Positions 10,185 through 54,822 of a stretch of 54,822 bases of DNA are shown piece by piece. Within the stretch, counting starts at the first letter, position 1, and every line of letters starts with the position of its first letter. Made by a program: the position numbers and the translations under genes. The stretch comes from a virus (Duplodnaviria > Heunggongvirae > Uroviricota > Caudoviricetes). The DNA lies in IMG/VR virus record IMGVR_UViG_2703718791_000011, one strand, 5' to 3'. The notes below the pieces were generated by a model that was given only the letters and a program-made list of their open reading frames with translations, was not told the origin of the DNA and did not search any database.

Positions 10185-11056
10185 CCACTTTAACCGACAA
10201 AGAACTGATTAAAGAAATCAAAGAGCGCATAGGTAGCCTGGATGTGAGAGACAATATTGAGCGCCGTGCTTATGAAATTGCTCTGGCATCACTGGAGGCA
10301 GAGCCAGTGGCAAAAATTATAGCTCACTACCCATTAGGAATTGACGTAGGCAAACAAAAGTTCGTACAGGCCATTGGAGAGCTTCCTGACTTTGGAGGAC
10401 ATCTATTCGCCGCTCCACCCGTTCCAGTAGTACCGGAAGAAAAACCAATGCCTAATCCTCTTAGCATGTACGCGGTTGATGCTGTTGCCGCTATTGCAGA
10501 GGTAAGAGGCTGGAACGCCTGCCGCGCCGCCATGCTTCAGTCCGGAAACTTTCGGGAAAACAAGAATTCGTCAACCAATAATTTTCGGGAAATCGCGGAA
10601 ACGTCAACCAACTATCCGGTAATTCCTAGTGAGGTGTTGTCCGCAATCTTGAAGGTTGCCAAGATTCGTGCCGATTTCGATGATTTTGACGGTGACAGGC
10701 GAGGTATCGGTGATTGTCTGGATGAGGCTGAGCAAGAGCTTATCGTTACCATTAACAAATATGCCAGTCAGTTGGCAGCAGAACCTATAGCGCCTAATGA
10801 CGTTCGAGAGCAGACAGCCATTCCGCAAGTTCCGGTAACTCCGGATGGTTGGATAAGCTGTAGTGAGCGAATGCCGGATACCAAAACAGCCGTTCTTGTT
10901 GCCAGGGAGTTTGACAGGAAAGGTGACTGGCGAATGAAATGGGCGACTTACATCCCGGGGCATCCTGACGCTAATGATGGGTGGGTAATACCTGGTGCGT
11001 CGTGGATTCCATCACACTGGATGCCGCTACCAGAACCGCCGCAGGAGGCGAAATGA
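10181..11056 (+). CDS. Hypothetical phage protein with DUF551-like C-terminus
   Basis: C-terminal W...IPSHWMPLPEPP pattern resembles DUF551 (from memory). Confidence 0.45.
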   Translation: MTTLTDKELIKEIKERIGSLDVRDNIERRAYEIALASLEAEPVAKIIAHYPLGIDVGKQKFVQAIGELPDFGGHLFAAPPVPVVPEEKPMPNPLSMYAVDAVAAIAEVRGWNACRAAMLQSGNFRENKNSSTNNFREIAETSTNYPVIPSEVLSAILKVAKIRADFDDFDGDRRGIGDCLDEAEQELIVTINKYASQLAAEPIAPNDVREQTAIPQVPVTPDGWISCSERMPDTKTAVLVAREFDRKGDWRMKWATYIPGHPDANDGWVIPGASWIPSHWMPLPEPPQEAK

Positions 11057-11313
11057 TGGATGTAAAAGAGAAGGTTTTGCAGGTGATGCGTTCCCGTGCT
11101 GCCCTACAAGAGAAAGCTCTCGGCGGTGAATATCCATTCACGATAGCAACCTGGAATCTGCGGTTGGCAATGGAGAAGGAATTTCCTGATGAAGAATGGC
11201 GCTCGGCAGATTTGCGCAAAATTCTTATGGAGCTGGCTAAAGACGGAACAGTATCCAAAGATACCCATGCCAGCCGGATTGGTCAGGCGGTATGGAGACT
11301 TGAGGTGCGGTAA
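11053..11313 (+). CDS. Hypothetical protein (86 aa)
   Basis: ORF 10981-11313 in track; start chosen at ATGATG overlapping upstream stop. Confidence 0.4.
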   Translation: MMDVKEKVLQVMRSRAALQEKALGGEYPFTIATWNLRLAMEKEFPDEEWRSADLRKILMELAKDGTVSKDTHASRIGQAVWRLEVR

Positions 11314-11389
11314 TGAGCTGGCCTGAAGCATTTGCGATTGTAGGCGTAGCTATGGCGATTGCCGCTATTTTTATCTTCTGGGGGTAACG

Positions 11390-11623
11390 ATGGGAAAATT
11401 AACTTTTGTTGTCGAATTTGAGGATGGCAAAGAGCCACCTGTTAGCGCCAATCTTGATGTTGCTGGTGGCAGGCTGGTTTCGGTTCTATTTGGTGATTAC
11501 CGCGACGACTTCTTTCAGCCTGAAGAAGTTGATGTAGTGCGAGAAGCATTAAACGAGCTAAGTGTTGATAACGATGATGCTCATGCGGAAATCATCAAAA
11601 AAATGGAACTGCTAACTCACTAA
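11390..11623 (+). CDS. Hypothetical acidic protein (77 aa)
   Basis: ORF track. Confidence 0.4.
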   Translation: MGKLTFVVEFEDGKEPPVSANLDVAGGRLVSVLFGDYRDDFFQPEEVDVVREALNELSVDNDDAHAEIIKKMELLTH

Positions 11624-11705
11624 ATTATCAATTATGGTGCTATCACCTACGACACCGAGAGAAAATTTATAATGTCAAAAGTAAATGTTTTGATTTTTTC
11701 AGCAA

Positions 11706-12095
11706 TTGTTGGCTTTGGTTTTACTGCCGGAGTGCAGATTTATATTGCGTGGGAAAAAATCATCAACTACGCATGGAGTTGTTTTATTAAGTGAGGTAAG
11801 TATGTGGAGAGGTAATAGTCATGGCAAAAGCCAGATGATACTTACCGAATATCAGTTTGACCATAAAACCAATAAATCACGTTCAGTATATTTGCTTCGG
11901 CACAATAGCCGCGTAAGGAATACCGTGCTGGAGCAAAATCTGACTGTTGAAATGGATAATTACGGTGGCTTCAAGCCAACAATTTCGCTTGATGATTTTC
12001 CTCGTGGTTTAAGCGAAAGAGAAGCAATGCTGAAATTAGCAGAATGGCTACAAAGATTAAGCATTGCTATTGAAGATAACTGGTCTGAACCTTAA
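11706..12095 (+). CDS. Hypothetical protein (start uncertain)
   Basis: ORF track. Confidence 0.35.
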   Translation: MLALVLLPECRFILRGKKSSTTHGVVLLSEVSMWRGNSHGKSQMILTEYQFDHKTNKSRSVYLLRHNSRVRNTVLEQNLTVEMDNYGGFKPTISLDDFPRGLSEREAMLKLAEWLQRLSIAIEDNWSEP

Positions 12096-12101
12096 ATTTA
12101 T

Positions 12102-12476
12102 ATGATGACACTAAAACATTTTCTTGACCGCCCATTATGGGCGGCAGCCGCAGGCTATGACTTTAATTATATGGATTGCATGTCTTATACTGCCAATGCA
12201 TACGACCATTCGTTCAGCCTGCTGTTTAATTCTTTAAGAATATTGCCGGAAACAGAAGTTGGAGAGCTTCATTTATGGCTATTGGGCTTTATCGCGGCTG
12301 TCGTTGGTATTGCTGTATGGCCTTTTATTTTCTGGCTGGTGGCTGTTGTAGTGTGGTTTAAGTGCAAGACGTACCGGAGAAAGTATTTCTTAGGTGATGG
12401 AATGACTGATATTGCCAAAATGAACATTGAAAAATGGACTAAGGAATGTGAAAAGAAATGGCGCAAAAAGAAATGA
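12102..12476 (+). CDS. Hypothetical membrane protein (one long hydrophobic segment)
   Basis: ORF track; LWLLGFIAAVVGIAVWPFIFWLVAVVVWF. Confidence 0.4.
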   Translation: MMTLKHFLDRPLWAAAAGYDFNYMDCMSYTANAYDHSFSLLFNSLRILPETEVGELHLWLLGFIAAVVGIAVWPFIFWLVAVVVWFKCKTYRRKYFLGDGMTDIAKMNIEKWTKECEKKWRKKK

Positions 12477-13390
12477 CCAGAATCACTGAAGAGCGTATAT
12501 CAGAGATTATTTCCCGTATCGAAATGTATGGTCACGGTGCTGGATATACGGCAGATGAAGTATTGGCACTTGCCCAAATGGTTTTGGCGGCTTGCAAAGA
12601 TGATAAAAAAATGAAGTTTATCGACTTGTTAGTGAAGGAGCTGCCTAAGTGCGGCGGGTGGCCTGATGGAATGAGTTATTGTTACCTACCCAGTGTCAAT
12701 TTAATGGCACCATGCGCGACTTTTGCTTTTGGCTCAGACCACAAAAAAGACACTTTCTTTGGGCGCAATTTTTGTTGTGATATTGAGCTTCCAATTGGTG
12801 ACCTTGATAGCGATGAATACCAGTCAGTTGTCACTCGCGAACAATACGAATCAGCTCTCATAGCGTCGCAGAAAGTCGAGTTCAATGGTGATGAACTTGA
12901 AAGTAAGACTTACAGGTTGGATTTTGGGCAATGGCTGGAACAGCAACGCGGGAAAATCGATGTGGACTGTGGTTGTGTGTCCACTGAAACATTCATGCAC
13001 TGGCTGCGGGTAGCTTACGAGGCTGGCAACTATCCGGATATTCCGGATAGTTCGGTGCCAGCGCCAGGAAAGGGCGTCACCGGTGAACGTATCCGCATTA
13101 AGCCGCATGTTTATCGCGAACTGGTTAACCGTCTCCACGATACAGCGATCAAGTGTGCTGGCACCCAGCAATTACGAGAAAGAATTAGCCGTGTTTTGGG
13201 CGACGTTATTACGCCATATCATCATAAACAAGCCGAGAAAAGCGGTCTGGAAAGGTGTCATCTTGAGGCAGCATTAAACATTAAGCCGGGGCATACGCTT
13301 GGCATTATTGATGCACTGTTGGTTCATAAGATGGCCATGGCTTTATTGTCGTTGGTGGACGCTGGTGATACAAGCGAGGGTGAAGTATGA
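12458..13390 (+). CDS. Hypothetical protein (310 aa)
   Basis: ORF track. Confidence 0.45.
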   Translation: MAQKEMTRITEERISEIISRIEMYGHGAGYTADEVLALAQMVLAACKDDKKMKFIDLLVKELPKCGGWPDGMSYCYLPSVNLMAPCATFAFGSDHKKDTFFGRNFCCDIELPIGDLDSDEYQSVVTREQYESALIASQKVEFNGDELESKTYRLDFGQWLEQQRGKIDVDCGCVSTETFMHWLRVAYEAGNYPDIPDSSVPAPGKGVTGERIRIKPHVYRELVNRLHDTAIKCAGTQQLRERISRVLGDVITPYHHKQAEKSGLERCHLEAALNIKPGHTLGIIDALLVHKMAMALLSLVDAGDTSEGEV

Positions 13391-13749
13391 GAGTTGCAGA
13401 TCACATCAAACACCTTGAAAGAATTATCGAAAACGGTGAACTCTTAAGAGATCAGATGAGACGCACGGCAGAAGCCAGGGAGGCGATAATCCGCAGTCAG
13501 GCTGGTAAATTAAAGCAATTGTCAGAGATTAACACGCTATACAAGAACAGACGTAACCGGGCGGTGATGCGGCTTCAGAAAGCACGTAATGAAATTAAAT
13601 TGGTGGAGGCAAAACTGAAAAAACAGATCCAGCGTTACGATCAGCAAGATGCTTTTTATGCCGCCATCAAGGCGGCTGCTAATGAAATAGGCATCTGGAA
13701 GTTGCTGGTGGAGAAAGCAAAGACGAAGTTAAATGCCAACGAAAGCTGA
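13387..13749 (+). CDS. Hypothetical coiled-coil protein (120 aa)
   Basis: ORF track; overlapping start/stop with upstream gene. Confidence 0.45.
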   Translation: MRVADHIKHLERIIENGELLRDQMRRTAEAREAIIRSQAGKLKQLSEINTLYKNRRNRAVMRLQKARNEIKLVEAKLKKQIQRYDQQDAFYAAIKAAANEIGIWKLLVEKAKTKLNANES

Positions 13750-13824
13750 ACTACAGGTGCCCACCAGCACATACAGAAAATGATTGTTTCCACATCAAGG
13801 AGATTTTAATGTTTCACTGAAACA

Positions 13825-13962
13825 TTAAGTAAGCCAGTGCATAATTCCATTTTTTACTGACCTTAAAAGCAAAATCAAAACGATGATGAGGATAATAGCC
13901 AGAATCTGGCTAATAATAGGCGCATCTAAAAATGCACTCAGGAACTGAAAAAAAGCGTTCAT
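13825..13962 (-). CDS. Candidate small hydrophobic peptide (45 aa, MNAFFQFLSAFLDAPIISQILAIILIIVLILLLRSVKNGIMHWLT)
   Basis: Own translation of the minus strand; AAGGAA-like RBS upstream; too short for the ORF track. Confidence 0.3.
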   Translation of the reverse strand: MNAFFQFLSAFLDAPIISQILAIILIIVLILLLRSVKNGIMHWLT

Positions 13963-14824
13963 TCAGGTGGTTCCTTGTCAAATGTAAAGGTGCACTTGCT
14001 CACGTTGACGTAGAAACCCAACCCCTATATAGTTGGATTCGGTGAATGAAAGTCGTTAACGTGAGCTTACGGCACATGTTTTCGGAAAAACATCAGGGAA
14101 CGGCTAATTCCTTGATGCGGGTGGGGTCTGTAATGCAGACCCTATCTATTAACGTCATGATTGCATCTCAAATTTTCTCCTTATCTTCAATTAATCTACA
14201 TTCATTTCATCTGTTAGCCACCACAATATGTAGAAAATGGCCCTCTTGCAAGTGCATAACTTTGTGGATAACTCAGGAAGGAAAAAGTGGCTTTCGCGCA
14301 CCTTCGGTCAGACAAGGTGTCCGGGAAAGTCAACGCAAAGAAAAAAATTGTTAAAAATAACGTTTGTTGGAATTGTATATTTCTATCCCCTTCAATGGTT
14401 AGCATTCTATTAACATCTTTTTTTAGAGACAGAAAAACATATCGTAACAACATATATACAGTATTAAGAGGCGAGTATTATCCTGCGGTGGGAATTCTGG
14501 GTGCTGTTAGATTCGACTTTCTCAGCAGGATTACATCGTCAACTTGCGACGTTGCCGTATGACTTTCGTGTAATAGGTGACAATGATGCGGCTAGTGAGT
14601 TACTTGTGAAGTTTTTCGGAAAAGGTTTTGTGGCCTCGGATCTTGATGAGCTACAGCAACATGAAGTGTCTAATTTGATTTTTAGCCATAGCCAATAAGC
14701 CTCCCTCCTCCATCAAGGCCACAATTTGTGACCTTAAACAATTTGTTTTCTGCTTTTTCTTATTTGAGGAAATAACGTTGTTGACAGCTAATAGGCTCGT
14801 TGTTGTTATACATGCCTGTATAGA

Positions 14825-15181
14825 TTATGACCGTAAATTATTAGCGGATTTTAAGCCATATTCACCGTTGTAGAAATTACTCATGTTCCATTCATTAGGA
14901 AGTTCTTTTCTGTCCAATGTATAGTGGCGCACGATATAACGATCTTCATCTTCTTCGATGGACAGGCGGACATAGCCAATGTGAATCACCGATACGGGCG
15001 GTGTTCGTATTGCATAGATGTCGCGGAGATATACCGGCAGCTCGACAAATGCATCAGGTGCATCTGTGATGCTCGTTTTTTCACAGTATTCATATAACGC
15101 ATCGTTGATATCGTTAAGAGATTCATGATCGTATATTTCCAGGTAATTACCGCGATCACGATGGTACTCGATTTTAGCCAT
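14825..15181 (-). CDS. Hypothetical protein (118 aa)
   Basis: ORF track; directly abuts the upstream gene. Confidence 0.45.
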   Translation of the reverse strand: MAKIEYHRDRGNYLEIYDHESLNDINDALYEYCEKTSITDAPDAFVELPVYLRDIYAIRTPPVSVIHIGYVRLSIEEDEDRYIVRHYTLDRKELPNEWNMSNFYNGEYGLKSANNLRS

Positions 15182-15766
15182 TCAAAATCCCCTGTTATCG
15201 TTTTGCATTTCTCTAATCCGGTTCAGAACTACTTCGTGCTGGACTTGGATAGCGGCTTTTTCGTTTTCAAGCCGGGCAATAGACATCTCTAATTCTTTGC
15301 TGTACCAGGCGAGCTGGGCCAGGTTCATCCGGTTGTGGTCGAGAGTTGGAGACACTTCGACGCGATCCCTTTCTTCCTGCTTTAATGAGAAGAGATTTAT
15401 CTCATCCCTTGAGGAAAATTCAGCAACAATTTCTTGTTGATGATCCGGTCGCTGCGGCATCCTCGCCAGTATAAATGGCGGTTCTTTTGAAAACATGAAT
15501 GTCGGTTCAGACCGTGTTTTTACCCAGCTTGCCTGCTGTCTTTCGGCAAGTTCACAGGCTTCATCATAGTTATCTGCCAAACAAAGCACGGATGGACGGT
15601 CCCACGCCCCACCATTCAGACAATAAACTACAATTTTCCCGTCAGGTTGTGTAACCCCATATGGATGGTCCCACCAGGCGTCCAGCTGAGCTTTAGAGCG
15701 TTTCTCGTTAGGAGTGCAGTCAAAATTTTTGGGCAATACAGGATCGAGAGGAATGCGATTAGGCAT
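15182..15766 (-). CDS. Hypothetical protein (194 aa)
   Basis: ORF track. Confidence 0.45.
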   Translation of the reverse strand: MPNRIPLDPVLPKNFDCTPNEKRSKAQLDAWWDHPYGVTQPDGKIVVYCLNGGAWDRPSVLCLADNYDEACELAERQQASWVKTRSEPTFMFSKEPPFILARMPQRPDHQQEIVAEFSSRDEINLFSLKQEERDRVEVSPTLDHNRMNLAQLAWYSKELEMSIARLENEKAAIQVQHEVVLNRIREMQNDNRGF

Positions 15767-22760: not shown

Positions 22761-22999
22761 AATTATGCCTCACTGTATTGACAACACAGAGCCTGAAGCT
22801 CTGACCTACTGTTTCACCCATGATCCATGCTGGGGTAATCTAACAACATTGCGCTGTGTGTAAGATGAGCAATGCATAGCTGTAATGCCGTTGTATAAGG
22901 TTTCCCTGTTTGCTCATTTCCTTCTGAGCCGCTCTACAACGCTGAAGACACATTAAATAGTGAATCCAAAGTCGTATTACGAAACGGCGGCAAAACTAT

Positions 23000-23016
23000 A
23001 ATTTATTAGAGCAATT
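23000..23016 (-). promoter_or_regulatory. C1 operator (reverse complement ATTGCTCTAATAAATT)
   Basis: Near-perfect consensus match upstream of the coi-c1 operon. Confidence 0.6.
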
Positions 23017-23081: not shown

Positions 23082-23097
23082 ATTGCTCTAATAATTC
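23082..23097 (+). promoter_or_regulatory. C1 operator (ATTGCTCTAATAATTC)
   Basis: Consensus match. Confidence 0.6.
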
Positions 23098-23141
23098 TTG
23101 ATTTTTATGCGCAGCTGGACGTAAACTCCTCTTCGGACCTA

Positions 23142-23593: not shown

Positions 23594-24625
23594 ATGTCCA
23601 ATTTACTGACCGTACACCAAAATTTGCCTGCATTACCGGTCGATGCAACGAGTGATGAGGTTCGCAAGAACCTGATGGACATGTTCAGGGATCGCCAGGC
23701 GTTTTCTGAGCATACCTGGAAAATGCTTCTGTCCGTTTGCCGGTCATGGGCGGCATGGTGCAAGTTGAATAACCGGAAATGGTTTCCCGCAGAACCTGAA
23801 GATGTTCGCGATTATCTTCTATATCTTCAGGCGCGCGGTCTGGCAGTGAAAACTATCCAGCAACATTTGGGCCAGCTAAATATGCTTCATCGTCGGTCCG
23901 GGCTGCCACGACCAAGTGACAGCAATGCTGTTTCACTGGTCATGCGACGGATCCGAAAAGAAAACGTTGATGCCGGTGAGCGTGCAAAACAGGCGCTGGC
24001 GTTCGAACGCACTGATTTCGACCAGGTTCGTTCACTCATGGGAAATAGCGATCGCTGCCAGGATATACGGAATCTGGCATTTCTGGGGATTGCTTATAAC
24101 ACCCTGTTACGTATAGCCGAAATTGCCAGGATCAGGGTTAAAGATATCTCACGTACTGACGGTGGGAGAATGTTAATCCATATTGGCAGAACGAAAACGC
24201 TGGTTAGCACCGCAGGTGTAGAGAAGGCACTTAGCCTGGGGGTAACTAAACTGGTCGAGCGATGGATTTCCGTCTCTGGTGTGGCTGATGATCCGAATAA
24301 CTACTTGTTTTGCCGGGTCAGAAAAAATGGTGTTGCCTCGCCATCATCCACCAGCCAGCTATCAACTCGCGCCCTGGAAGGGATTTTTGAAGCAACTCAC
24401 CGATTGATTTACGGGGCTAAGGATGACTCTGGTCAGAGGTACCTGGCCTGGTCTGGACACAGTGCCCGTGTCGGAGCCGCGCGAGATATGGCCCGCGCCG
24501 GAGTTTCAATACCGGAGATCATGCAAGCTGGTGGCTGGACCAACGTAAATATTGTCATGAACTATATCCGTAACCTGGATAGTGAAACAGGGGCAATGGT
24601 GCGCCTGCTGGAAGATGGCGATTAG
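23594..24625 (+). CDS. cre: Cre tyrosine recombinase
   Basis: 343 aa; MSNLLTVHQNLPALPVDATSDEVRKNLMDMFRDRQAFSEHTWKMLLSVCRSWAAWCKLNNRKWFPAEPEDVRDYLLYLQARGLAVKTIQQHLGQLNMLHRRSGLPRPSDSNAVSLVMRRIRKE... matches Cre from memory. Confidence 0.97.
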   Translation: MSNLLTVHQNLPALPVDATSDEVRKNLMDMFRDRQAFSEHTWKMLLSVCRSWAAWCKLNNRKWFPAEPEDVRDYLLYLQARGLAVKTIQQHLGQLNMLHRRSGLPRPSDSNAVSLVMRRIRKENVDAGERAKQALAFERTDFDQVRSLMGNSDRCQDIRNLAFLGIAYNTLLRIAEIARIRVKDISRTDGGRMLIHIGRTKTLVSTAGVEKALSLGVTKLVERWISVSGVADDPNNYLFCRVRKNGVASPSSTSQLSTRALEGIFEATHRLIYGAKDDSGQRYLAWSGHSARVGAARDMARAGVSIPEIMQAGGWTNVNIVMNYIRNLDSETGAMVRLLEDGD

Positions 24626-24642
24626 CCATTAACGCGTAAATG

Positions 24643-24659
24643 ATTGCTCTAATTATTTG
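24643..24659 (+). promoter_or_regulatory. C1 operator-like site (ATTGCTCTAATTATTTG)
   Basis: Consensus match upstream of 24676 ORF. Confidence 0.5.
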
Positions 24660-24675
24660 ATATTTATGGTGACAT

Positions 24676-24987
24676 ATGAGAAAGAATTTCAACATCGACG
24701 GAAAATATGTAGTGCTGTCAGTGAGCACTAATATTCAGTCGCCAGCCGTCATTGTCACTGTAAAGCTGAGCGATAGAATGCCTGATATTGACTCAATATC
24801 CGTTGCGTTCCCTGTCAGAAGTATGCGTAGTGCTGAACATTTCGTGATGAATGCCACCGAGGAAGAAGCACGGCGCGGTTTTGCTAAAGTGATGTCTGAG
24901 TTTGGCGAATTTTTGGGGCACGTTGACAAAGCCCTCTCAATCAGTTCAGCAAGGTCCAAAGCATTAACAGCTTCCATGATGAAATAA
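24676..24987 (+). CDS. Hypothetical protein in the position of P1 cra (c8)
   Basis: ORF track; synteny cre-cra-ref. Confidence 0.45.
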   Translation: MRKNFNIDGKYVVLSVSTNIQSPAVIVTVKLSDRMPDIDSISVAFPVRSMRSAEHFVMNATEEEARRGFAKVMSEFGEFLGHVDKALSISSARSKALTASMMK

Positions 24988-25118
24988 AAAAAGCCTGGCA
25001 AGGAGCCAGGCTGCACAAAAGAGCGGGTTTGTATTCCGCATCCAATCAATCAAGAAGGAGTATAGCACACAGGTACTGAAGTGAAAAAATGTGATTCGCG
25101 ATAAACAAAATCTCTACC

Positions 25119-25148
25119 ATTGCTCTAATTGATTGCTATAATTGAGCC
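25119..25148 (+). promoter_or_regulatory. Tandem overlapping C1 operators (ATTGCTCTAATTGATTGCTATAATTGAG) controlling ref
   Basis: Two consensus-like half sites; ref is C1-controlled in P1. Confidence 0.6.
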
Positions 25149-25200
25149 GCAGTTTTTGTCAACTACGAAGACGTTGCCATTACTTAACTCCTTGACATCA

Positions 25201-25228
25201 TTGGCGGCCATCAGGCCGCCTTTTTTTT
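25201..25228 (+). terminator. Hairpin GGCGGCCATCAGGCCGCC followed by T8 just upstream of the ref start
   Basis: Inverted repeat plus T-run seen directly. Confidence 0.5.
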
Positions 25229-25233
25229 GCCAT

Positions 25234-25535
25234 ATGAAAACAATCGAACAAAAAATTGAACAGCACCGTAAGTGGCAGAAGGCAGCCAGAGAACGAGCGA
25301 TCGCTCGGCAACGGGAGAAGTTGGCTGATCCGGCCTGGCGAGAATCTCAATATCAGAAAATGCGGAATACTATCGACCGCCGTATCGCTAAACAGAAAGA
25401 GCGCCCACCAGCCAGCAAAACGCGGAAAAGCGCGGTAAAAATAAAATCTCGTGGCTTGAAGGGACGAACACCGACGGCGGAGGAGCGGCGCATAGCCAAT
25501 GCTCTTGGCGCTCTCCCCTGCATTGCCTGCTATAT
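25234..25535 (+). pseudogene. ref: ref 5' fragment (Ref HNH-type recombination enhancement nuclease), interrupted by Tn3-family insertion after codon for ...IACYM
   Basis: MKTIEQKIEQHRKWQKAARERAIARQ... matches P1 Ref N-terminus; reading frame runs into the transposon IR. Confidence 0.85.
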
Positions 25536-25582
25536 GGGGCTCCGTTTGGGAAACGGAAAATATTGTACGTTAAGGCTGTTTT

Positions 25583-26224
25583 TTAATCAGGTTTAACCTC
25601 TTTATAGAGAGCCTGAATGCGACAAACCTGCGAAGTGCTGTAGCCCGTTGCATCTGCTGTTTCTCTAATGCTGAGTTTTTTTACTTGTCTGTAGTACAAC
25701 ACTTTCTGATGACGTTCCTGATCGGCCTGTTTTCCCCGGTATTTACCCAACGTATGAGCTCGTTCAATTCCCTGTTTTTGGCGTTGGCGACGACTCAGCC
25801 AGTCCTTATGCGACATCGCGGCCATCAGGTCTATAAGCATATTATTTATTGCAGTTATCACTGCGCGGGTAATCGGATCTGATTGTGAAGGATCTTTATC
25901 TGACAGGGCTTGCCATGATGTTGGAACATCCAGACTGACAATCCGCAGTTCGTGTTGTTCTATCTGCTTTTTCAGCGTTATCCAGTCGCTGTTACTCAGT
26001 CGGGTCAGGCGGTCTATCTGCTCGACCAGCAAAATATCATTACGGTGACTGTCCATCAGTAAGCGTTTCAGTTCCGGACGGTCAAGTTTTGTACCGCTTA
26101 TGTTCTCCCGATAATAACTGGCAATTTTATGCCCCCGTTCTTGGACGAACTGTTCCAGCATCTCTTTTGCTCGATCTGCAAACTGATCTTCTGTTGACGC
26201 CCTTAAATAAGCTCTGATGAACAT
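25583..26224 (-). CDS. tnpR: TnpR serine resolvase
   Basis: N-terminal MFIRAYLRASTEDQ serine-recombinase motif, C-terminal HTH; start chosen at the ATG that has a GGTGA RBS. Confidence 0.8.
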   Translation of the reverse strand: MFIRAYLRASTEDQFADRAKEMLEQFVQERGHKIASYYRENISGTKLDRPELKRLLMDSHRNDILLVEQIDRLTRLSNSDWITLKKQIEQHELRIVSLDVPTSWQALSDKDPSQSDPITRAVITAINNMLIDLMAAMSHKDWLSRRQRQKQGIERAHTLGKYRGKQADQERHQKVLYYRQVKKLSIRETADATGYSTSQVCRIQALYKEVKPD

Positions 26225-26390
26225 TTTTTCACCGCATTGTCGCATTTAGGTTGTTGCATATATTCTATCGCATATAGGTTATGTCATTATTTGTATGAGG
26301 TCACATTTTATATCTCGCATCAGGGTGTACCCTTATGCAATAACCTTTTCATCAAAAATAATGTACTAAATAATTAACAAGGATAACTAT
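26225..26390. promoter_or_regulatory. Putative res site and divergent tnpR/tnpA promoters
   Basis: AT-rich divergent intergenic region with repeated GCATATA-like motifs; position as in Tn3-family elements. Confidence 0.5.
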
Positions 26391-29378
26391 ATGGCAAGGA
26401 GGCAGATTCTTTCTCTATCGGAAAGAGAATCATTACTGGCATTGCCAGACGATGAGTTAACACTGACTCGAATGACGTATTTCAGTGAGCAGGATCTGGC
26501 AATTATCAATGCTCACCGTAAACCTGCCAGCCGGTTTGGTTTTGCCGTTCTTCTCTGTTATCTGAAAAGTATTGGGTTTGCCCCGGATAAAAAATCATCC
26601 CCACCCGCAAAATTGCTAAAAACCATTGGCGCTCGACTTAAGTTATCAGCAGAACTTTGGCAGGAATACGTTTCCGGTCGTGATACCACCAGACGTGAGC
26701 ATATGAGGGAACTTTATCGATATCTTGAACTGAAAGCCTTTAACGGTGCACTTCAGAAAGAATGTATCCGGCATCTGCTCCCTCTGTCTACCAGAACGGA
26801 CAGAGGCATACTTATCGCAGAGGAGTTACTAAAGTACCTGCATCAACAGCGAATTATTATTCCAGGCATTGATGTTCTGGAACGTACCTGTGCAGAAGCA
26901 ATGACACTGGGTGATAAAACGGTGTATACAACGCTGAATGCGCACCTTGATATCACGCATAAATCTGCGCTTGATGCCCTGTTGGTGACAAATGAAAAAC
27001 AAATATCCCGTTTGACGTGGCTGCTTCAACCTCCAGGGAAAATCAATGGAAAGAATGTCCTGCAACACATTGACCGCCTTAACGCTATTGAAGCTCTGGC
27101 GCTGCCGGAAGGAGTGGAGAGAACCGTTCACCAGAACCGATTGCTGAAACTCGCGCGTGAGGGCCGCAAAATGAGCAGTCGCGATCTGGCTGATTTTTCC
27201 CCTGCTCGTCGATACGCAACGATGGTCTGTGTACTGACTGAGGCCAGAGCCACAATCATTGATGAAATTATAGAACTGCATGAACGTATTCTAGGCAGCA
27301 TGTTCAGTCGGGCAAAACATCAGCAGGCCGAGCGTCTTCAGAAAACGGGCAAGTTGATACAGCAAAAGTTACGTCAGTATGTTTCTGTTGGCCAGGCTAT
27401 CCTGGATGCACGCAATGCAGGCGAAGATCCTCTGTCTGCTATTGAACGAGTGTTACCGTGGGACGATTTTGTCGCCAGTCTGGAGGAAACAAAGCTTCTT
27501 GCACGTAAGGATAATTTTGAGCCGCTTCATCTTATTACCGAAAAATTCAGTACATTGCGCAAATATTCTTTTCGTTTTCTATCGGCCCTGCAACTGAGAG
27601 CCACTTCGGCAGCGTTGCCGCTTAATGATGCCCTTGAAACTATTCGTGATATGTACCGTAAACAGCTACGAAAGGTTCCTGCATCGGCACCACTGGATTT
27701 CATTCCTGAGAGCTGGAGAAAGATGGTGGTCACCCCCTCAGGCATTGACCGACAATACTATGAAATTTGCGCAATGAATGAGCTAAAGGGGGCGCTGCGG
27801 GCGGGTGATATCTGGGTCAGGGGCTCCCGGCGCTACAAAAACTTTGATGATTATCTTATGCCTAACGATGATTTCGAAAAGTTATTAAATAATAACCTAT
27901 TAAATTTACCTGTTGGCACAGAATGCGGGGCTTATCTTAATGCCAGACTGACTCTACTGGCCTCCCGTCTGGAGGAAGTTAACGCAATGGCTGTCGCAGG
28001 GGAGCTTCCTGATGTGGATATTTCAGATAAAGGTGTAAAGATCACCCCACTGGATAACAGCGTTCCTTCAACAGTCTCTCCCCTGGCCGACCTGATTTAC
28101 AACATGCTACCGCACCCCAAAATTACAGAGATACTTGATGAAGTCGAGCGATGGACTGCCTTCTCGCGACATTTTACTCATCTTAAGAATCCGCTAATCC
28201 GTCCTCAGGATAATCGTTTACTACTAACCACTATCCTGGCGGACGGCATCAATCTAGGGTTGGCAAAAATGGCAGAGTCCTGTCCGGGAACCACACGAGC
28301 TTCGCTGGAAAACATACAAGCATGGTACATCCGTGATGAAACGTACTCTGCTGCACTGGCAGAACTGGTTAATGCCCAGAAGTCACGACCGCTGGCGGCA
28401 TTATGGGGAGACGGTTCCACCTCATCCTCTGACGGCCAGAATTTTAGGGTTGGCAGTCATGGGCGCTATGCCGGTCAGGTTAATTTGAAGTACGGTCAGG
28501 AACCTGGGGTGCAGTTTTATACGCATATCTCAGATCAATATAGTCCGTTTTATACCAAAGTAATCAGTCGTGTTCGTGATTCCACCCACGTACTTGATGG
28601 TCTTCTGTATCACGAAAGTGACCTTGATATAACGGAACATTACACCGATACAGCAGGTTTCACGGAGCATGTTTTTGCACTAATGCATCTGCTGGGATTC
28701 GCTTTTGCCCCAAGGATCCGGGATCTGCATGACAAACGTTTGTTTATTCAAGGTAAAGCTGATAACTATCCTGCTCTACAGTCAATTATCTCCACAACCC
28801 CCCTGAATATCAAAGAGATAAAAATACACTGGAATGAAATTCTGAGACTGGCGACCTCAATAAAACAGGGAACAGTGACCGCTTCTCTGATGCTGAAAAA
28901 ATTGGCCAGTTATCCGAAACAGAATGGCCTTGCTAAGGCGTTAAGAGAAATTGGTCGTATTGAGCGAACACTGTTCATGCTGGACTGGTTCCGCGATCCG
29001 GCGCTTCGTCGTAGGGTTCAGGCAGGTCTGAACAAAGGGGAAGCCCGGAATGCCCTTGCCAGAGCTGTCTTCATGCATCGTCTGGGAGAAATAAGGGATC
29101 GTGGTATTGAAAACCAGAGTTACCGCGCCAGTGGGCTTACGCTGCTCACTGCCGCAATCACTTTGTGGAATACCGTATATATAGAAAACGCCATTAACCT
29201 GCTGAAAAAGAAAGGGCTACATATTAATGAGCAATTGTTGTCACATTTGTCTCCGCTGGGCTGGGAGCACATTAATCTGACAGGGGACTATATCTGGAAA
29301 AACAATAAGAAGCTGGCTGAAGGGAAGTATCGTCCTTTGCGAGCAGTTGATGTCAGTCAGTACAAAAAACAGCCTTAA
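26391..29378 (+). CDS. tnpA: TnpA Tn3-family transposase (995 aa)
   Basis: Size and organisation; stop lies within the terminal inverted repeat. Confidence 0.85.
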   Translation: MARRQILSLSERESLLALPDDELTLTRMTYFSEQDLAIINAHRKPASRFGFAVLLCYLKSIGFAPDKKSSPPAKLLKTIGARLKLSAELWQEYVSGRDTTRREHMRELYRYLELKAFNGALQKECIRHLLPLSTRTDRGILIAEELLKYLHQQRIIIPGIDVLERTCAEAMTLGDKTVYTTLNAHLDITHKSALDALLVTNEKQISRLTWLLQPPGKINGKNVLQHIDRLNAIEALALPEGVERTVHQNRLLKLAREGRKMSSRDLADFSPARRYATMVCVLTEARATIIDEIIELHERILGSMFSRAKHQQAERLQKTGKLIQQKLRQYVSVGQAILDARNAGEDPLSAIERVLPWDDFVASLEETKLLARKDNFEPLHLITEKFSTLRKYSFRFLSALQLRATSAALPLNDALETIRDMYRKQLRKVPASAPLDFIPESWRKMVVTPSGIDRQYYEICAMNELKGALRAGDIWVRGSRRYKNFDDYLMPNDDFEKLLNNNLLNLPVGTECGAYLNARLTLLASRLEEVNAMAVAGELPDVDISDKGVKITPLDNSVPSTVSPLADLIYNMLPHPKITEILDEVERWTAFSRHFTHLKNPLIRPQDNRLLLTTILADGINLGLAKMAESCPGTTRASLENIQAWYIRDETYSAALAELVNAQKSRPLAALWGDGSTSSSDGQNFRVGSHGRYAGQVNLKYGQEPGVQFYTHISDQYSPFYTKVISRVRDSTHVLDGLLYHESDLDITEHYTDTAGFTEHVFALMHLLGFAFAPRIRDLHDKRLFIQGKADNYPALQSIISTTPLNIKEIKIHWNEILRLATSIKQGTVTASLMLKKLASYPKQNGLAKALREIGRIERTLFMLDWFRDPALRRRVQAGLNKGEARNALARAVFMHRLGEIRDRGIENQSYRASGLTLLTAAITLWNTVYIENAINLLKKKGLHINEQLLSHLSPLGWEHINLTGDYIWKNNKKLAEGKYRPLRAVDVSQYKKQP

Positions 29379-29411
29379 CGTACAATATTTTCCGTTTCCC
29401 AAACGGAGCCC

Positions 29412-29675
29412 TATATGCATGGAGTAATATCTGAAGAGGTGTCTCTGCACCATATCTCCGGTCGTACCGCGCCTGGTTGTCACAAAAAGCAATTGCCACT
29501 TTGTAGATGGCACCACCAGCATGCAGCACCGGCTGAAGTAAGAGAAAAATACCCCTGGCTGGTCCCTGTTCATGCCGATGGTGTGGTTGGAGGCAAGAAA
29601 GAATTCACCTTGCTGAACAAGTCAGAGATGGAGTTGCTGGCTGACGCCTATGAGATGGCAAACAGCATGCACTAA
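29412..29675 (+). pseudogene. ref: ref 3' fragment (HGVIS...HH...CRWHHQHAAP...), HNH motif region
   Basis: Continues the Ref sequence exactly after the transposon; HNH-like His/Cys cluster. Confidence 0.85.
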
Positions 29676-29865
29676 TAAATATATTATTTTTAATCTGAAA
29701 TAATTGACAACTGACAAGTGACTTCAGTCAGAATCATCACATGCCCGGTACGGATGGATCCCTTTTCAAATATTCCATGGACGGCACAGTCTGAGTACCG
29801 GGCGCTACCTTCAGTTGTATTGCTAAGCCGCCGCTGGTGGCTTTTCTTTTTTATAAGGGGCGCTA

Positions 29866-30506
29866 TGGATAAGAAAATATGCGTTGTTTCGATGAGCGTC
29901 GGCAAACCGGCGTCAATGACTGCCGCATGGATCAACAATGAGCTGATAATGGCTGAGCGGACCAGCTACCCTGAACGCCGCCGCGATATGGAACTCCAGC
30001 TGCTGCGCGAATTGCGAGAAAAAGAGGAAAAGGGTTTTATCGTGCTGGTGGAAGAGGAAAACAGCTTTATTACGGGTCGAGTTGGCCAGCGTGTAAGGTT
30101 GCGCGATCCCTTCATGAACGGCAGGCCGGTACTAATTGAAGCAATGCAGATTTACAAGGAGCTGGAACGCCAGAAAGCGATCAAGTTACCGCGCAAAGAA
30201 TCCGGCAAATACATCCTCCACCAAAGCATCTTCGATTCCGAACACGACAAAAAAGGCGATGAATTTTTCAACATCAACTGGAGCGAAATAACGACAGAGC
30301 ACGTTCTGTCGTTGTTATGCTGCTTCGCAACGGAATATAACAACGTTGCAAGCGCCGACTACATCAGGGCAATGGCTGGAGAAGTTGAGGCCCGCCAGGA
30401 ACCATCGTTACTAAGCCCTCTGATTAACATAATTCGCGGAACCCAATGTCTAGCCGACAAGCGAGTTCCTCAAGGCTTACTTACCGGCAAAGAAAACTAT
30501 TTATAA
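29866..30506 (+). CDS. mat: Mat-like protein (particle maturation), start chosen at MDKKICVV with AAGGGG RBS
   Basis: ORF 29718-30506 in track; position after ref as in P1. Confidence 0.55.
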
Positions 30507-30596
30507 TTAATTACGTCAGTAGCCAATAGAGATTTTTGTTGTGGAACAAAAATATATATTTTACAATCTAGTAACTTTGGGTGGAGGATTATTACA

Positions 30597-31637
30597 ATGA
30601 TGAATATTAAGCCGCTGAAAATTAGGAACAAGGTCATGAAGCCTCATAAAGCATCATTAAACCCTGACCTAACCGCAAGGAATGTACTTACATACAGTCA
30701 TTGGGATTTTGTCGAACTCTGGTTAAAGCGAAACGAAAAAGATGAGGCTCTTTTTTATTGGGAGCAAGCAAAAGTATTTAATCAGGCGGCCAATGGTTTA
30801 CCCAACCAATCAGCCCCACTTTTGCACTATTATTCATTCATGAATGCAGTAAAGGCGTTACTTTCATCTCGCAATATAAACTTCAAACAGCATCATGGTG
30901 TTGCTAGGGGTGAAAATGCAGCCCAAATTGATAACTTATCTGATATAAAAGTAAAAATAAAAAATGAGGGTATACTTCCGTCTTTTTCAAAATATATTGA
31001 CGGCACCTCTCATGAGGGGGTGTACAATATAAAAAACCTTTTTTCTGGATTGCCATATATTCATCGTACATATTGCCTTACTTATGATGTAACTGATGAT
31101 ATATTTATTCCACTGATCGATGCTGAGTTCGTTTTGAATGAGTCAGACAATAGCCTGTTTTTCACTGCGATTTTATCCAAGGATTTTCGGTTCGACACAG
31201 TTTTCGACATTCTACCGCCAGCGTTCGAATTGTTTGAAAGAGAAAAGTACAAAATAAAATCAGTAGAATCATTACTTGATTTTAATGAAAATCAATCGTC
31301 CAACATGCCGCAATTAACTGAATTTCATCAAAAAATAAGAAGAAATCTTTACTATATCAATGGCGCAGAGACTCTTTGGTATCTCAAACGTAAAAACAAT
31401 CAATCTGAGCATACTTCTGTTTCAATATCGCCATTGGTTATAACCCTAGCAGCTATGCATCGATTAAGTGAGCTATGTCGGTATGACCCACTTAAGCTAA
31501 GACAGTTACTAAATGAAAAAGAAAACTGGATTATTGCTGAATTTATTCAACAATCTCCGTCACAGTTTATAGATGCAATTTCATCTGAAATTACTGGACA
31601 CCAATTTCTTATCCCAAACGTAAGGTCTGCTTCTTAA
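30597..31637 (+). CDS. Cargo gene A: uncharacterised 346-aa protein, low-GC, first gene of a two-gene cassette
   Basis: ORF track; GGTGGAGG RBS; no motif I can assign with confidence (one Rx6H-like stretch SRNINFKQHH). Confidence 0.6.
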   Translation: MMNIKPLKIRNKVMKPHKASLNPDLTARNVLTYSHWDFVELWLKRNEKDEALFYWEQAKVFNQAANGLPNQSAPLLHYYSFMNAVKALLSSRNINFKQHHGVARGENAAQIDNLSDIKVKIKNEGILPSFSKYIDGTSHEGVYNIKNLFSGLPYIHRTYCLTYDVTDDIFIPLIDAEFVLNESDNSLFFTAILSKDFRFDTVFDILPPAFELFEREKYKIKSVESLLDFNENQSSNMPQLTEFHQKIRRNLYYINGAETLWYLKRKNNQSEHTSVSISPLVITLAAMHRLSELCRYDPLKLRQLLNEKENWIIAEFIQQSPSQFIDAISSEITGHQFLIPNVRSAS

Positions 31638-32146
31638 TGAATATATATATCGCATGCGCTTTAACTCATGTTCCAAGGGAAATTTTCCATGAGTACAGTA
31701 ATTGGATTCACAGCCTTGCAAAAGGTTTATCTCAAAATAACAACGTAAAATATGCTTTGATAAATAGTGACCCAGAATTATCAAAGCGCCCTGAAAGTAA
31801 CAAATCTAGACTTTGTTACATTTGGGACAGAGATATGGTTGAGAAATCTGATGTAATAATTGCAGAATGTAGTTTTCCATCAACAGGGCTAGGAATAGAG
31901 TTGCAGATTGCTGAACAGAAGAACATTCCTGTAATCATCTGTTATAAAGATTATGGGATAAATAAAACTAAAACCATTGAATACGTGAATCCAGATGAGA
32001 CTACCCATAATCTACAAGTTGGCGAGGGTTTCATTTCTCATATGGTATTAGGACTACCAAACATCCTTGATGTCATATTATGTAAAGATATTGATAACAC
32101 ATGCAGGAAGCTAAAAATACTGTTAGATATGATTAACCATAATTAA
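31637..32146 (+). CDS. Cargo gene B: 169-aa protein with nucleoside 2-deoxyribosyltransferase / DNPH1 / TIR-like flavodoxin-fold signature
   Basis: N-terminal MNIYIACALTH and core DVIIAECSFPSTGLGIELQIAEQKNIPVI resemble the NDT-family pattern with a conserved Glu; start overlaps the stop of gene A (TAATG). Confidence 0.55.
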   Translation: MNIYIACALTHVPREIFHEYSNWIHSLAKGLSQNNNVKYALINSDPELSKRPESNKSRLCYIWDRDMVEKSDVIIAECSFPSTGLGIELQIAEQKNIPVIICYKDYGINKTKTIEYVNPDETTHNLQVGEGFISHMVLGLPNILDVILCKDIDNTCRKLKILLDMINHN

Positions 32147-43465: not shown

Positions 43466-43482
43466 ATTGCTCTAATTAATTT
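43466..43482 (+). promoter_or_regulatory. C1 operator-like site (ATTGCTCTAATTAATTT) upstream of ssb
   Basis: Consensus match. Confidence 0.5.
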
Positions 43483-54473: not shown

Positions 54474-54822
54474 TGAACCGCCCCGGGTTTCCTGGAGAGT
54501 ATTTTATCTGTGAACTCAGGCTGCCAGATCATTATTTCCGATGGAAGCATAATAAGCTTTTTCTGCTTCTGCCGGAGGAATATGGCCCAGCCTTTCCAGC
54601 AATCGTCGATTGTTATACCAGTCCACCCACGTTCGTGTGGCCAGTTCCACTTCTGTCCGGTTTTTCCAGCTATTACGGTGTATTACCTCCGCTTTGTAAA
54701 GACCATTGATGCTCTCAGCCATCGCGTTGTCATACGAGTCGCCAGTACTCCCTGTTGATGCCAGTAATCCGGCTTCCTTAAGCCGCTGCGCGTAGGCCAG
54801 CGATACATACTGAGAACCTTTA
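54474..54822 (-). mobile_element. IS3-family (IS629/IS1203-like) insertion sequence, partial; contains the transposase C-terminus (54516-54822)
   Basis: End sequence TGAACCGCCCCGGGTTTCCTGGAGAGT...; minus-strand translation ...DSYDNAMAESINGLYKAEVIHRNSWKNRTEVELATRTWVDWYNNRRLLERLGHIPPAEAE resembles the IS3-family OrfB C-terminus. Confidence 0.8.

What the first reader, a model, noticed from the sequence alone, without database searches (positions are those of the whole stretch)
25234..29675. ref gene cleanly split by a Tn3-family transposon with target duplication
The Ref frame runs ...LPCIACYM into the left inverted repeat at 25536 and resumes HGVISEEVSLHHISGRTAPGCHKK... immediately after the right inverted repeat at 29411. 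The roughly 38-bp terminal repeats are in inverted orientation and TATAT(G) flanks both junctions, the classic 5-bp duplication of Tn3-family elements. The element carries only tnpR and tnpA (no obvious passenger gene), and the tandem C1 operators and promoter of ref remain intact upstream.
Basis: seen in the sequence. Interest (0 to 1): 0.5.

Follow-up and report, generated by a model that had tools for sequence, protein, structure and literature searches.

The report
Cryptic Tn3-family transposon splitting P1 ref
A 3.9-kb transposon carrying only its own two mobility genes has jumped into the non-essential ref nuclease gene of a P1-like phage-plasmid; this is an ordinary insertion, although related transposons have hit the same few bases of ref in other plasmids.

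Summary
The window is a P1-like phage-plasmid, 98-99.97% identical to E. coli plasmid pTHO-010-4. Its ref gene is interrupted by one 3,875-bp Tn3-family element (25537-29411) with perfect 48-bp inverted ends, tnpR (-), a 166-bp repeat-rich intergenic region, and tnpA (+). There is no room for a passenger gene. Removing the element and one copy of the duplication gives a 561-nt ORF identical at every base to the intact ref of pTHO-010-4.

There are two corrections:
- **Duplication length.** Five other copies and two relatives show that the element ends in GGGC, so the duplication here is 6 bp (TATATG), not the usual 5 bp. The other copies of the same element do have 5-bp duplications.
- **Operators.** Upstream there is one C1 operator, as in P1, not a tandem pair.

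The element is not Tn5403 (TnpA 34% identical). Its closest named relative is TnEc1 (TnpA 76%, TnpR 97%). Near-identical copies lie in three E. coli strains.

The exact ref::Tn junction was not found in any collection searched. However, at least four other independent Tn3-family insertions lie in or next to ref in other P1-like elements. Two of them are within 4 bp of this site, and one of those bounds a ~39-kb resistance region. The finding is ordinary biology, plus a modest possible hotspot.

The parts
25114..25142 (+). P2ref promoter with the single C1 operator Oref (25119-25135)
   Evidence: Positions were transferred from the P1 record NC_005856.1 through the alignment. The operator and the -10 hexamer are identical to P1. 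There is one substitution in the -35 hexamer, shared with pTHO-010-4. This is the only operator match within 3 mismatches at this locus.
25174..25201 (+). P1ref promoter (TTGCCA, 16 nt, CATCAT)
   Evidence: It is annotated in P1, identical in the window, and recovered by the promoter scan.
25203..25228 (+). G+C-rich hairpin followed by T8, immediately before the ref ATG (terminator-like leader)
   Evidence: One search finds 7 G-C pairs and a loop of 4. It is conserved in P1 and pTHO-010-4, with only a loop substitution relative to P1.
25234..25536 (+). ref 5' fragment, codons 1-101. The frame runs on into the left repeat to a stop at 25594-25596, predicting Ref(1-101) plus 19 foreign residues.
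   Evidence: Pfam RecA_dep_nuc positions 1-22 fall at residues 80-101.
25531..25536 (.). Left copy of the 6-bp target duplication TATATG
   Evidence: The empty site in pTHO-010-4 and in P1 reads CTGCTATATGCATGG.
25537..25584 (+). Left terminal inverted repeat. The canonical 38 bp are 25537-25574 (GGGCTCCG...ACGTTAAG); perfect identity with the right end runs for 48 bp.
   Evidence: The end was defined from other copies and from relatives.
25583..26224 (-). tnpR, serine resolvase of 213 aa (the start used by RefSeq for identical copies; an upstream ATG at 26245 would give 220 aa)
   Evidence: Pfam Resolvase E=3.4e-21 plus a C-terminal HTH. RefSeq copies are annotated as 642 nt. It is 96.7% identical to the TnEc1 TnpR.
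26225..26390 (.). Divergent tnpR-tnpA intergenic region, the putative res site with both promoters
   Evidence: It carries repeated TCGCATATAGGTT-like motifs in direct and inverted orientation and promoter-like sites on both strands. The res assignment is inferred from position, not tested.
26391..29378 (+). tnpA, Tn3-family DDE transposase of 995 aa; its stop codon lies inside the right repeat
   Evidence: PF01526 E=2e-147 plus DUF4158. NF033527 scores 1144 bits against a cut-off of 500. It is intact and 100% identical in DNA to a chromosomal copy in E. coli 2013C-3033.
29364..29411 (-). Right terminal inverted repeat (canonical 38 bp are 29374-29411)
29412..29417 (.). Right copy of the 6-bp target duplication TATATG
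29415..29675 (+). ref 3' fragment, codons 101-186. It holds most of the HNH nuclease core, including His134 and His153.
   Evidence: Pfam RecA_dep_nuc positions 22-102, E=1.1e-38. The rebuilt Ref aligns end to end with the solved P1 Ref structure 3PLW. The role of His134 and His153 comes from PMC4713147.
29666..29683 (-). Omat, the C1 operator overlapping the ref stop codon, left intact downstream
   Evidence: The position was transferred from the P1 annotation using the offset. The sequence is visible. It was not realigned separately.

Best explanation
A cryptic Tn3-family transposon carrying only tnpR, a putative res site and tnpA moved into codons 99-101 of ref on a P1-like phage-plasmid. 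It is an unnamed relative of TnEc1. The inferred route is replicative transposition from another replicon in the same cell (a chromosome or an F-type plasmid), followed by resolution of the cointegrate by TnpR. At this site the staggered cut spanned 6 bp (TATATG) rather than the usual 5 bp. The insertion separates the N-terminal DNA-binding region of Ref from most of its HNH nuclease core, so the RecA-dependent nuclease is lost. What remains under the intact C1-controlled promoters is Ref(1-101) with a 19-residue tail. Because ref is dispensable, the phage-plasmid most likely remains viable and now carries the transposon as cargo. Shown: the anatomy, exact reconstitution of the empty site, the family of both proteins, and independent copies of the element elsewhere with their own duplications. 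Inferred: the cointegrate route, current activity of the element, loss of Ref function, and viability of the phage.
For: Anatomy: perfect 48-bp inverted ends, present only twice in the window. tnpA and tnpR are intact and score far above family cut-offs.

Empty site: in-silico excision restores ref with 0 of 561 differences from pTHO-010-4. The element is the only large indel between window 15742 and 54473 relative to that plasmid.

Mobility: copies at 99.9-100% identity lie in the chromosome of E. coli 2013C-3033 (between lsrR and lsrK) and on two plasmids each in strains 21319 and SCU-172. Four of these five copies have different 5-bp duplications (GTATA, GTATT, TATTA, AAATA), which points to recent movement.

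6-bp duplications have a precedent. Tn3-derived miniature elements gave 5- or 6-bp repeats, and all the 6-bp ones arose at a single site (PMC4133298).

Ref function: the N-terminal 76 residues bind DNA, and His134 and His153 are active-site residues (PMC4330346, PMC4713147). P1 lacking ref still forms lysogens, and does so 40-fold better.
Against: No experiment or read-level data were available, so a misassembly that placed a transposon copy here cannot be formally excluded. The exact duplication and exact reconstitution make that unlikely. A 5-bp duplication plus one extra base (a G at the left end or a T at the right end) would give the same sequence. The exact junction is absent from every collection searched, so no second instance corroborates it. 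The res site is inferred from its position and repeats only. One copy of the element (pSCU-172-2) has no flanking duplication.
Confidence: 0.9

Rival explanations
1. The duplication is the classic 5 bp (TATAT), and the left end of this copy carries an extra G (GGGGCTCC). Alternatively the duplication is ATATG, with one extra T at the right junction.
For: Most Tn3-family members have GGGG ends, including the two other elements found at this site. Four other copies of this same element made 5-bp duplications. Structural work on Tn3-family TnpA fits a 5-bp stagger (PMC9579193).
Against: All five other copies and two diverged relatives end GGGC at both ends, and the base before it varies with the target. 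The G at 25536 is exactly the base expected from the empty site, TATATG. The right end has only three C. 6-bp duplications by this family are documented and depend on the site.
Confidence: 0.15
2. The insertion is not an independent event. It descends from the same ancestral insertion as the Tn3-family element at the identical position in plasmids such as that of E. coli CB6886, and its interior was later replaced by recombination with a related transposon.
For: The position is the same (after TATAT), and the tnpA 3' end faces the ref 3' fragment in both. Mosaicism does occur in this group: TnpR is 97% but TnpA only 76% identical to TnEc1.
Against: The terminal repeats differ at several positions, including base 4. 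The duplication lengths differ (6 against 5 bp). The elements are only about 72-75% identical. The ref alleles also differ. Recombination cannot replace the outermost bases of a transposon without homology in the flank.
Confidence: 0.05
3. The recurrence of insertions in ref reflects selection for loss of Ref, not only where the transposase prefers to cut. Plasmids without Ref would lysogenise better and make their host less sensitive to fluoroquinolones.
For: ref lowers lysogenisation 40-fold, and ref+ lysogens show stronger SOS induction and killing by ciprofloxacin (PMC4713147). ref is also broken at other positions in other plasmids: spread-sampled rows show matches ending or starting near nt 426, 322, 452 and 202. 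Five independent Tn3-family insertions lie in or beside ref.
Against: 522 of 666 E. coli records with ref carry a near full-length copy, so loss is not general. Three events within a 10-bp patch point to target choice, because selection alone would accept any disruptive position. The truncated product keeps the N-terminal domain, which alone induces SOS. This explanation is compatible with the best one rather than exclusive of it.
Confidence: 0.3
4. The junctions are an assembly artefact: a repeated transposon was placed in the wrong replicon by the assembler.
For: The element is multi-copy in the strains that carry it. One IMG/VR contig breaks inside it (L020). No other record has this junction.
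Against: A misplacement would not create a precise 6-bp duplication of target sequence, nor leave a site that closes to an exact intact ref.
Confidence: 0.03

Closest known systems
TnEc1 (the Tn3-family element on plasmid pO55 of E. coli O55:H7 CB9615, as named in RefSeq annotation)
   Same: It has the same compact layout: divergent tnpR and tnpA with nothing else, ends of the same 38-bp type finishing ACGTTAAG, and a size of about 3.8 kb. TnpR is 96.7% identical.
   Different: TnpA is only 75.9% identical, and the DNA is about 75-81% identical over part of the length. Its ends start GGGGTCAG rather than GGGCTCCG. The window's element is therefore a distinct mosaic relative, not an isoform.
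Unnamed copies of the same element in public genomes (E. coli 2013C-3033 chromosome, plasmids of strains 21319 and SCU-172; diverged forms in E. albertii pESA134_2 and K. michiganensis pJNQH491-2)
   Same: The E. coli copies are 99.9-100% identical over all 3,875 bp. The E. albertii form is 94.8% identical in DNA (TnpA 98.2%). The K. michiganensis TnpA is 93.5% identical. GGGC ends are seen at both ends of the E. coli and E. albertii copies and at the right end of the K. michiganensis copy, whose left end was not recovered.
   Different: They sit at other sites (between lsrR and lsrK, in a DUF2726 gene, and near IncF replication genes), and four of the five E. coli copies have 5-bp duplications. 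None is in ref. All are annotated only as 'Tn3 family transposase'.
Tn5403 (cryptic Tn3-family transposon of Klebsiella)
   Same: It also carries no resistance or other passenger genes (PMC5142620).
   Different: This was my first guess from memory, and it was tested and rejected. Against the Tn5403-family genes on pKpQIL, TnpA is 34% and TnpR 49% identical, and there tnpA and tnpR point the same way.
Tn3-family-bounded regions in ref of other P1-like plasmids (for example p20170403CC-1, and the plasmids of E. coli CB6886 and AH21)
   Same: The same gene is hit within 0-4 bp, with terminal repeats of the same family and with target duplications (TGCTA; TATAT).
   Different: The elements are different (about 72% identical in DNA). 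They now bound regions of about 30-39 kb carrying IS26, a class 1 integron integrase gene (intI1), tet(A) or metabolic genes, whereas the window holds a bare transposon.
P1 Ref (structure 3PLW), a RecA-dependent HNH endonuclease
   Same: The rebuilt protein has 186 aa and differs from P1 Ref at 7 residues. It aligns end to end with 3PLW.
   Different: Here the gene is in two pieces, so neither piece holds both the DNA-binding region and the complete nuclease core.

Membership tests
Tn3-family transposon | Large (about 1000 aa) DDE transposase of the Tn3 type | tested here: met
   995 aa. PF01526 E=2e-147 and PF13700. NF033527 scores 1144 bits against a cut-off of 500.
Tn3-family transposon | Terminal inverted repeats of about 38 bp, starting GGGG and ending TAAG | tested here: met
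   The 38-bp repeats are identical at both ends and end ACGTTAAG. The first four bases are GGGC rather than GGGG, a variant shared by all copies and relatives examined.
Tn3-family transposon | A site-specific recombinase and a res site for cointegrate resolution | tested here: inconclusive
   A serine resolvase is present (PF00239 E=3.4e-21). The 166-bp intergenic region has repeated motifs, but no res subsites were defined or tested.
Tn3-family transposon | 5-bp target-site duplication | tested here: not met
   At this site the duplication is 6 bp (TATATG) once the ends are set from other copies. Four other copies of the same element do have 5-bp duplications, and 6-bp repeats are documented for this family's machinery (PMC4133298). 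This is a deviation at one site and not grounds for exclusion.
Tn3-family transposon | Replicative transposition through a cointegrate, and target immunity | not testable with these tools
   Only one copy and two ends are present in the window, which is compatible with immunity but does not test it.
TnEc1 (same element or isoform) | Near-identical transposase and ends | tested here: not met
   TnpA is 75.9% identical and the ends differ, although TnpR is 96.7% identical.
Tn5403 | Near-identical transposase and the same gene order | tested here: not met
   TnpA is 34% and TnpR 49% identical, and the genes are co-directional in Tn5403.
Ref family (RecA-dependent HNH nuclease of P1-like phages) | A continuous ORF matching the RecA_dep_nuc profile and P1 Ref over its full length | tested here: met
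   This holds only after in-silico excision: 186 aa, with 7 differences from P1 Ref and a full-length match to 3PLW at E=1.6e-119. The two fragments cover profile positions 1-22 and 22-102. As found in the window, the gene is disrupted.
P1-like phage-plasmid backbone | Synteny and high identity with P1 and its relatives around cre, c8, ref and mat, with C1 operators | tested here: met
   cre and c8 lie upstream. The flanks are 97% identical to P1 and 98-99.97% identical to pTHO-010-4 over most of the window. There are 12 operator-like sites against 0.23 expected.

The most novel reading that the evidence does not exclude
A roughly 10-bp patch of ref (nt 294-303), and the ref locus more widely, may be a preferred landing site for TnEc1-related Tn3-family transposons in P1-like phage-plasmids. 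A bare transposon such as the one in this window would then be the first step toward the 30-39-kb resistance or cargo regions that are bounded by such ends at the same spot in other plasmids. Loss of the Ref nuclease (better lysogenisation, less ciprofloxacin killing) could help such plasmids persist.
Probability: 0.3. Interest if true: 0.45.

Novelty: new member of a known kind. Interest (0 to 1): 0.25.

Why it matters
In itself the finding matters little: it is a textbook insertion of a cryptic transposon into a dispensable phage gene. It has three modest uses.
- It shows that a P1-like phage-plasmid can pick up an apparently active Tn3-family element and could carry it between cells inside a phage particle.
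- It is a natural, well-documented case of a 6-bp duplication made by an element that elsewhere makes 5-bp duplications.
- Together with the other plasmids, it suggests that ref is where Tn3-family elements, and the resistance regions built on them, tend to enter P1-like genomes. That could be tested with a simple transposition assay and a survey of public plasmids.

Tried and rejected
- **Tn5403.** This was my recollection for a tnpA/tnpR-only element. It was rejected by comparison with the Tn5403-family genes of pKpQIL (34% and 49% identity, different gene order).
- **Naming the element.** NCBIfam gave only the generic Tn3 model. The large protein search gave only 'Tn3 family transposase' names, with the best hit at 94% and the nearest family-level name (TnAs3) at 56%.
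- **Searching for the same junction.** Nothing was found in INPHARED phages, complete E. coli genomes, PLSDB, IMG/VR or JGI metagenomes.
- **Homology between the target and the transposon ends** as a cause of the hotspot. The best ungapped matches (15-18 of 38) were no better than shuffles.
- **Counting intact against broken ref.** The result is not clean. 144 of 666 records lack a near full-length match, but many of those are divergent N-terminal alleles annotated as intact.
- **Literature.** No open-access paper searched mentions ref as an insertion site for Tn3-family elements. One lists 'Ref family' as a neighbour of resistance genes in a P1 pangenome graph.
- **Defence-system and Pfam scan of the three genes downstream.** There were no PADLOC hits, only a YaaC-like domain and a weak sub-threshold hit.


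Full report
**What is there**

The window is a P1-like phage-plasmid. Upstream of the finding lie cre (23594-24625) and c8 (24676-24987). The flanks of the finding are 97% identical to phage P1. Most of the window aligns to the E. coli plasmid pTHO-010-4 (NZ_AP022544.1) at 98-99.97% identity.

Between window positions 15742 and 54473, the only large difference from that plasmid is a block at 25537-29411. The two alignments stop at 25536 and restart at 29411.

**Anatomy of the block**

- **Ends.** Positions 25537-25584 and 29364-29411 are perfectly complementary over 48 bp. The first 38 bp (GGGCTCCGTTTGGGAAACGGAAAATATTGTACGTTAAG) occur exactly twice in the window, against none in 100 shuffles.
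- **tnpR.** The ORF at 25583-26224 on the minus strand is a serine resolvase with a C-terminal helix-turn-helix.
- **tnpA.** The ORF at 26391-29378 on the plus strand is a 995-aa Tn3-type DDE transposase. It scores PF01526 E=2e-147 plus DUF4158, and NF033527 1144 bits against a cut-off of 500.
- **Intergenic region.** The 166 bp between the two genes carry several copies of a TCGCATATAGGTT-like motif, in direct and inverted orientation, and promoter-like sites on both strands. This is the expected place for res, but I did not test it.
- **No passenger gene.** Both genes end inside the terminal repeats, so there is no room for one.

Joining 25234-25535 to 29417-29675 gives a 561-nt ORF in frame. 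It is identical at every base to the intact ref of pTHO-010-4, and it differs from P1 ref at 20 nt and 7 aa. A 5,537-nt stretch around the site aligns to pTHO-010-4 without a gap at 99.75%.

The rebuilt protein aligns end to end with the solved P1 Ref structure 3PLW. The two fragments match positions 1-22 and 22-102 of the Pfam RecA_dep_nuc profile.

**Where exactly the element ends, and how long the duplication is**

I used other copies of the element to settle it. Copies at 99.9-100% identity lie in the chromosome of E. coli 2013C-3033 and on two plasmids each of strains 21319 and SCU-172.

In all five copies the element begins GGGCTCC and ends GGAGCCC. The preceding base varies with the target. 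Four of the five are flanked by 5-bp duplications (GTATA, GTATT, TATTA, AAATA), and one has none. A 94.8%-identical form in E. albertii also has GGGC at both ends, and an 87.8%-identical form in K. michiganensis has GGGC at its right end. GGGC... is also the canonical 38-bp register, ending ACGTTAAG.

So the element is 25537-29411 (3,875 bp). The G at 25536 belongs to the target, whose empty form reads CTGCTATATGCATGG. The duplication here is 6 bp, TATATG (25531-25536 and 29412-29417).

A 5-bp duplication plus one stray base cannot be excluded, but it is less economical. There is a precedent for 6 bp. Tn3-derived miniature elements produced 5- or 6-bp repeats, and all the 6-bp cases arose at one site, which led the authors to suggest that the size depends on the target (PMC4133298).

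**Upstream control region**

Window 25095-25240 differs from P1 at four positions and is identical to pTHO-010-4. The P1 record annotates one monovalent C1 operator (Oref) overlapping promoter P2ref, and a second promoter, P1ref. The homologous positions are 25119-25135, 25114-25142 and 25174-25201.

Only 25119-25135 matches the operator consensus within three mismatches.

**What the element is**

I first thought of Tn5403, because it too carries no passenger gene (PMC5142620). The test rejects that. Against the Tn5403-family genes annotated on pKpQIL, TnpA is 34% and TnpR 49% identical, and the two genes there point the same way.

The closest element with a name in the sources available is TnEc1 on pO55. 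TnpR is 96.7% identical but TnpA only 75.9%, and the ends differ. That is the mosaic pattern expected from exchange near res.

The protein search returned only generic names. I therefore treat it as an unnamed member of the TnEc1-related group. Its multiple copies with different duplications in three strains show that it has moved recently.

**Consequences for Ref**

These are inferred from published work. Ref has a 76-residue unstructured N-terminal DNA-binding region and a 110-residue HNH core (PMC4330346). His134 and His153 are active-site residues (PMC4713147).

The insertion falls after codon 101. Two products are predicted:
- The 5' product is Ref(1-101) plus 19 residues read from the left repeat, with a stop at 25594-25596. 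It still sits behind the C1-controlled promoters. It lacks the active site but keeps the whole N-terminal region, which alone was sufficient to induce SOS when over-expressed.
- The 3' fragment starts at the duplicated ATG (29415). By accident it lies 6 nt after a GGAG contributed by the right repeat, 36 nt past the tnpA stop, so read-through translation is conceivable. That product would lack the DNA-binding region and the first 24 residues of the core.

P1 without ref forms lysogens 40-fold better, and ref+ lysogens respond more strongly to ciprofloxacin. The insertion is therefore at worst neutral for life as a plasmid.

From my own knowledge of P1 headful packaging, an extra 3.9 kb should be tolerated. 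I did not test this.

**Is the same insertion known?**

No record holds this junction. I searched INPHARED phages, complete E. coli genomes, PLSDB, and exact patterns in IMG/VR and JGI metagenomes.

**Recurrent insertions at the same place**

Two other P1-like plasmid groups have ref interrupted at almost the same spot by different Tn3-family ends.

- **Group 1.** This comprises p20170403CC-1, at least nine further E. coli plasmids, and Shigella and Salmonella plasmids in PLSDB. The junctions read CC TGCTA|GGGGTCAGTTTGGATATCG... and ...CCCC|TGCTA TATGCATGG. That is a 5-bp duplication 4 bp upstream of the window's site, with a TnEc1-type left end. About 39 kb lie between the ends, carrying IS26, intI1 and tet(A).
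- **Group 2.** This comprises the plasmids of CB6886 and AH21, cattle-associated plasmids, and, for the right junction, S1-ZIM-01-A. The junctions are TATAT|GGGGTCCGC... and ...GGACCCC|TATAT. That is exactly the window's position with a 5-bp duplication, checked on both sides in one plasmid.

The three elements are only about 72-83% identical to one another, so these are separate events.

These hits are biased, because the query was anchored on this junction. I therefore also scanned IMG/VR for the bare 38-bp ends.

- The only P1-like contig with a TnEc1-type end again has it in ref, at nt 118-122 with duplication TATCA (L023 and L027).
- The only contig with the window's end type is also P1-like. 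There the element abuts the start codon of an antirepressor-like gene that occupies the ref position (L020).

That makes five independent Tn3-family insertions in or beside the ref locus, three of them within a 10-bp patch.

The target shows no similarity to the transposon ends beyond chance. It is a short A+T island in a G+C-rich gene. I found no paper in the searchable library that describes this clustering. One lists 'Ref family' among the neighbours of resistance genes in P1-like plasmids.

Whether this reflects target preference, tolerance of insertions in a dispensable gene, selection against Ref, or a mix of these is open. 522 of 666 E. coli records with ref still have a near full-length copy.

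**Verdict**

The finding is real and correctly interpreted in its essentials. It is an ordinary Tn3-family insertion, with a 6-bp rather than 5-bp duplication, into the dispensable ref gene of a P1-like phage-plasmid. The element is an unnamed relative of TnEc1, and this insertion allele was not found elsewhere, so I file it as a new member of a known kind. Interest is low. The only point that might repay further work is the apparent landing site in ref, shared with the ends of large resistance regions in other P1-like plasmids.

Noticed in passing
L002 9420-9480 and L012 4600-4690 (NZ_AP025206.2); L019 about 3920-3990 and L011 4600-4690 (NZ_JBVDMN010000004.1); L003; L010: Other P1-like plasmids have ref cut within 0-4 bp of the window's site by two different Tn3-family elements, with duplications TGCTA and TATAT. 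These ends now bound regions of about 39 kb and about 30 kb; the 39-kb region carries IS26, intI1 and tet(A).
   Followed up: partly
L023 10360-10397 and L027 1061-1098 (IMGVR_UViG_2778261689_000001): A P1-like viral contig has a TnEc1-type element inserted in ref at a different place, about nt 118-122, with duplication TATCA.
   Followed up: partly
L020 27-1021 (IMGVR_UViG_2690316273_000011): A P1-like contig carries the window's type of transposon end (the E. albertii-like variant) directly against the start codon of a 317-aa antirepressor-like gene that sits where ref normally is. The contig breaks inside the transposon.
   Followed up: partly
window 25203-25228: A strong terminator-like hairpin (7 G-C pairs, then T8) lies between the ref promoters and the ref ATG. 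It ends 6 nt before the start codon and is conserved in P1 and pTHO-010-4, so it may be a regulatory leader.
   Followed up: no
window 29405-29417: The right repeat supplies a GGAG 6 nt upstream of the duplicated ATG (codon 101 of ref), 36 nt after the tnpA stop. Read-through from tnpA could therefore translate Ref(101-186).
   Followed up: no
window 25583-26224 versus 26391-29378: The element is a mosaic relative to TnEc1: the resolvase is 96.7% identical but the transposase only 75.9%. This suggests exchange at or near res.
   Followed up: partly
window 29865-32146: Downstream of ref, in the mat region, lie three genes: one of unknown function, a YaaC-like protein (PF14175, E=5.9e-46), and a 169-aa protein with a weak, sub-threshold nucleoside 2-deoxyribosyltransferase match. 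From about 30500 onward the G+C content is low (34-36%). None has a PADLOC hit. The same module is present in pTHO-010-4.
   Followed up: partly
L008 2990-3010 and 6870-6890 (pSCU-172-2, NZ_CP054355.1): One 99.9%-identical copy of the element has no flanking duplication (CTAGCA on one side, AGATC on the other). This suggests a later rearrangement or recombination between two copies.
   Followed up: no
window 7179-15741: This stretch aligns only in pieces, at 92-98%, to the otherwise near-identical pTHO-010-4, so it is a variable region of the backbone. The last 350 bases (54474-54822) also leave the alignment, about 200 bp from an IS26 copy in pTHO-010-4.
   Followed up: no
window, 12 sites (for example 22999-23015, 23082-23098, 24643-24659, 43466-43482): There are 12 matches to the C1 operator consensus within 3 mismatches, against 0.23 expected by chance. 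This is as expected for a P1-type immunity network.
   Followed up: no
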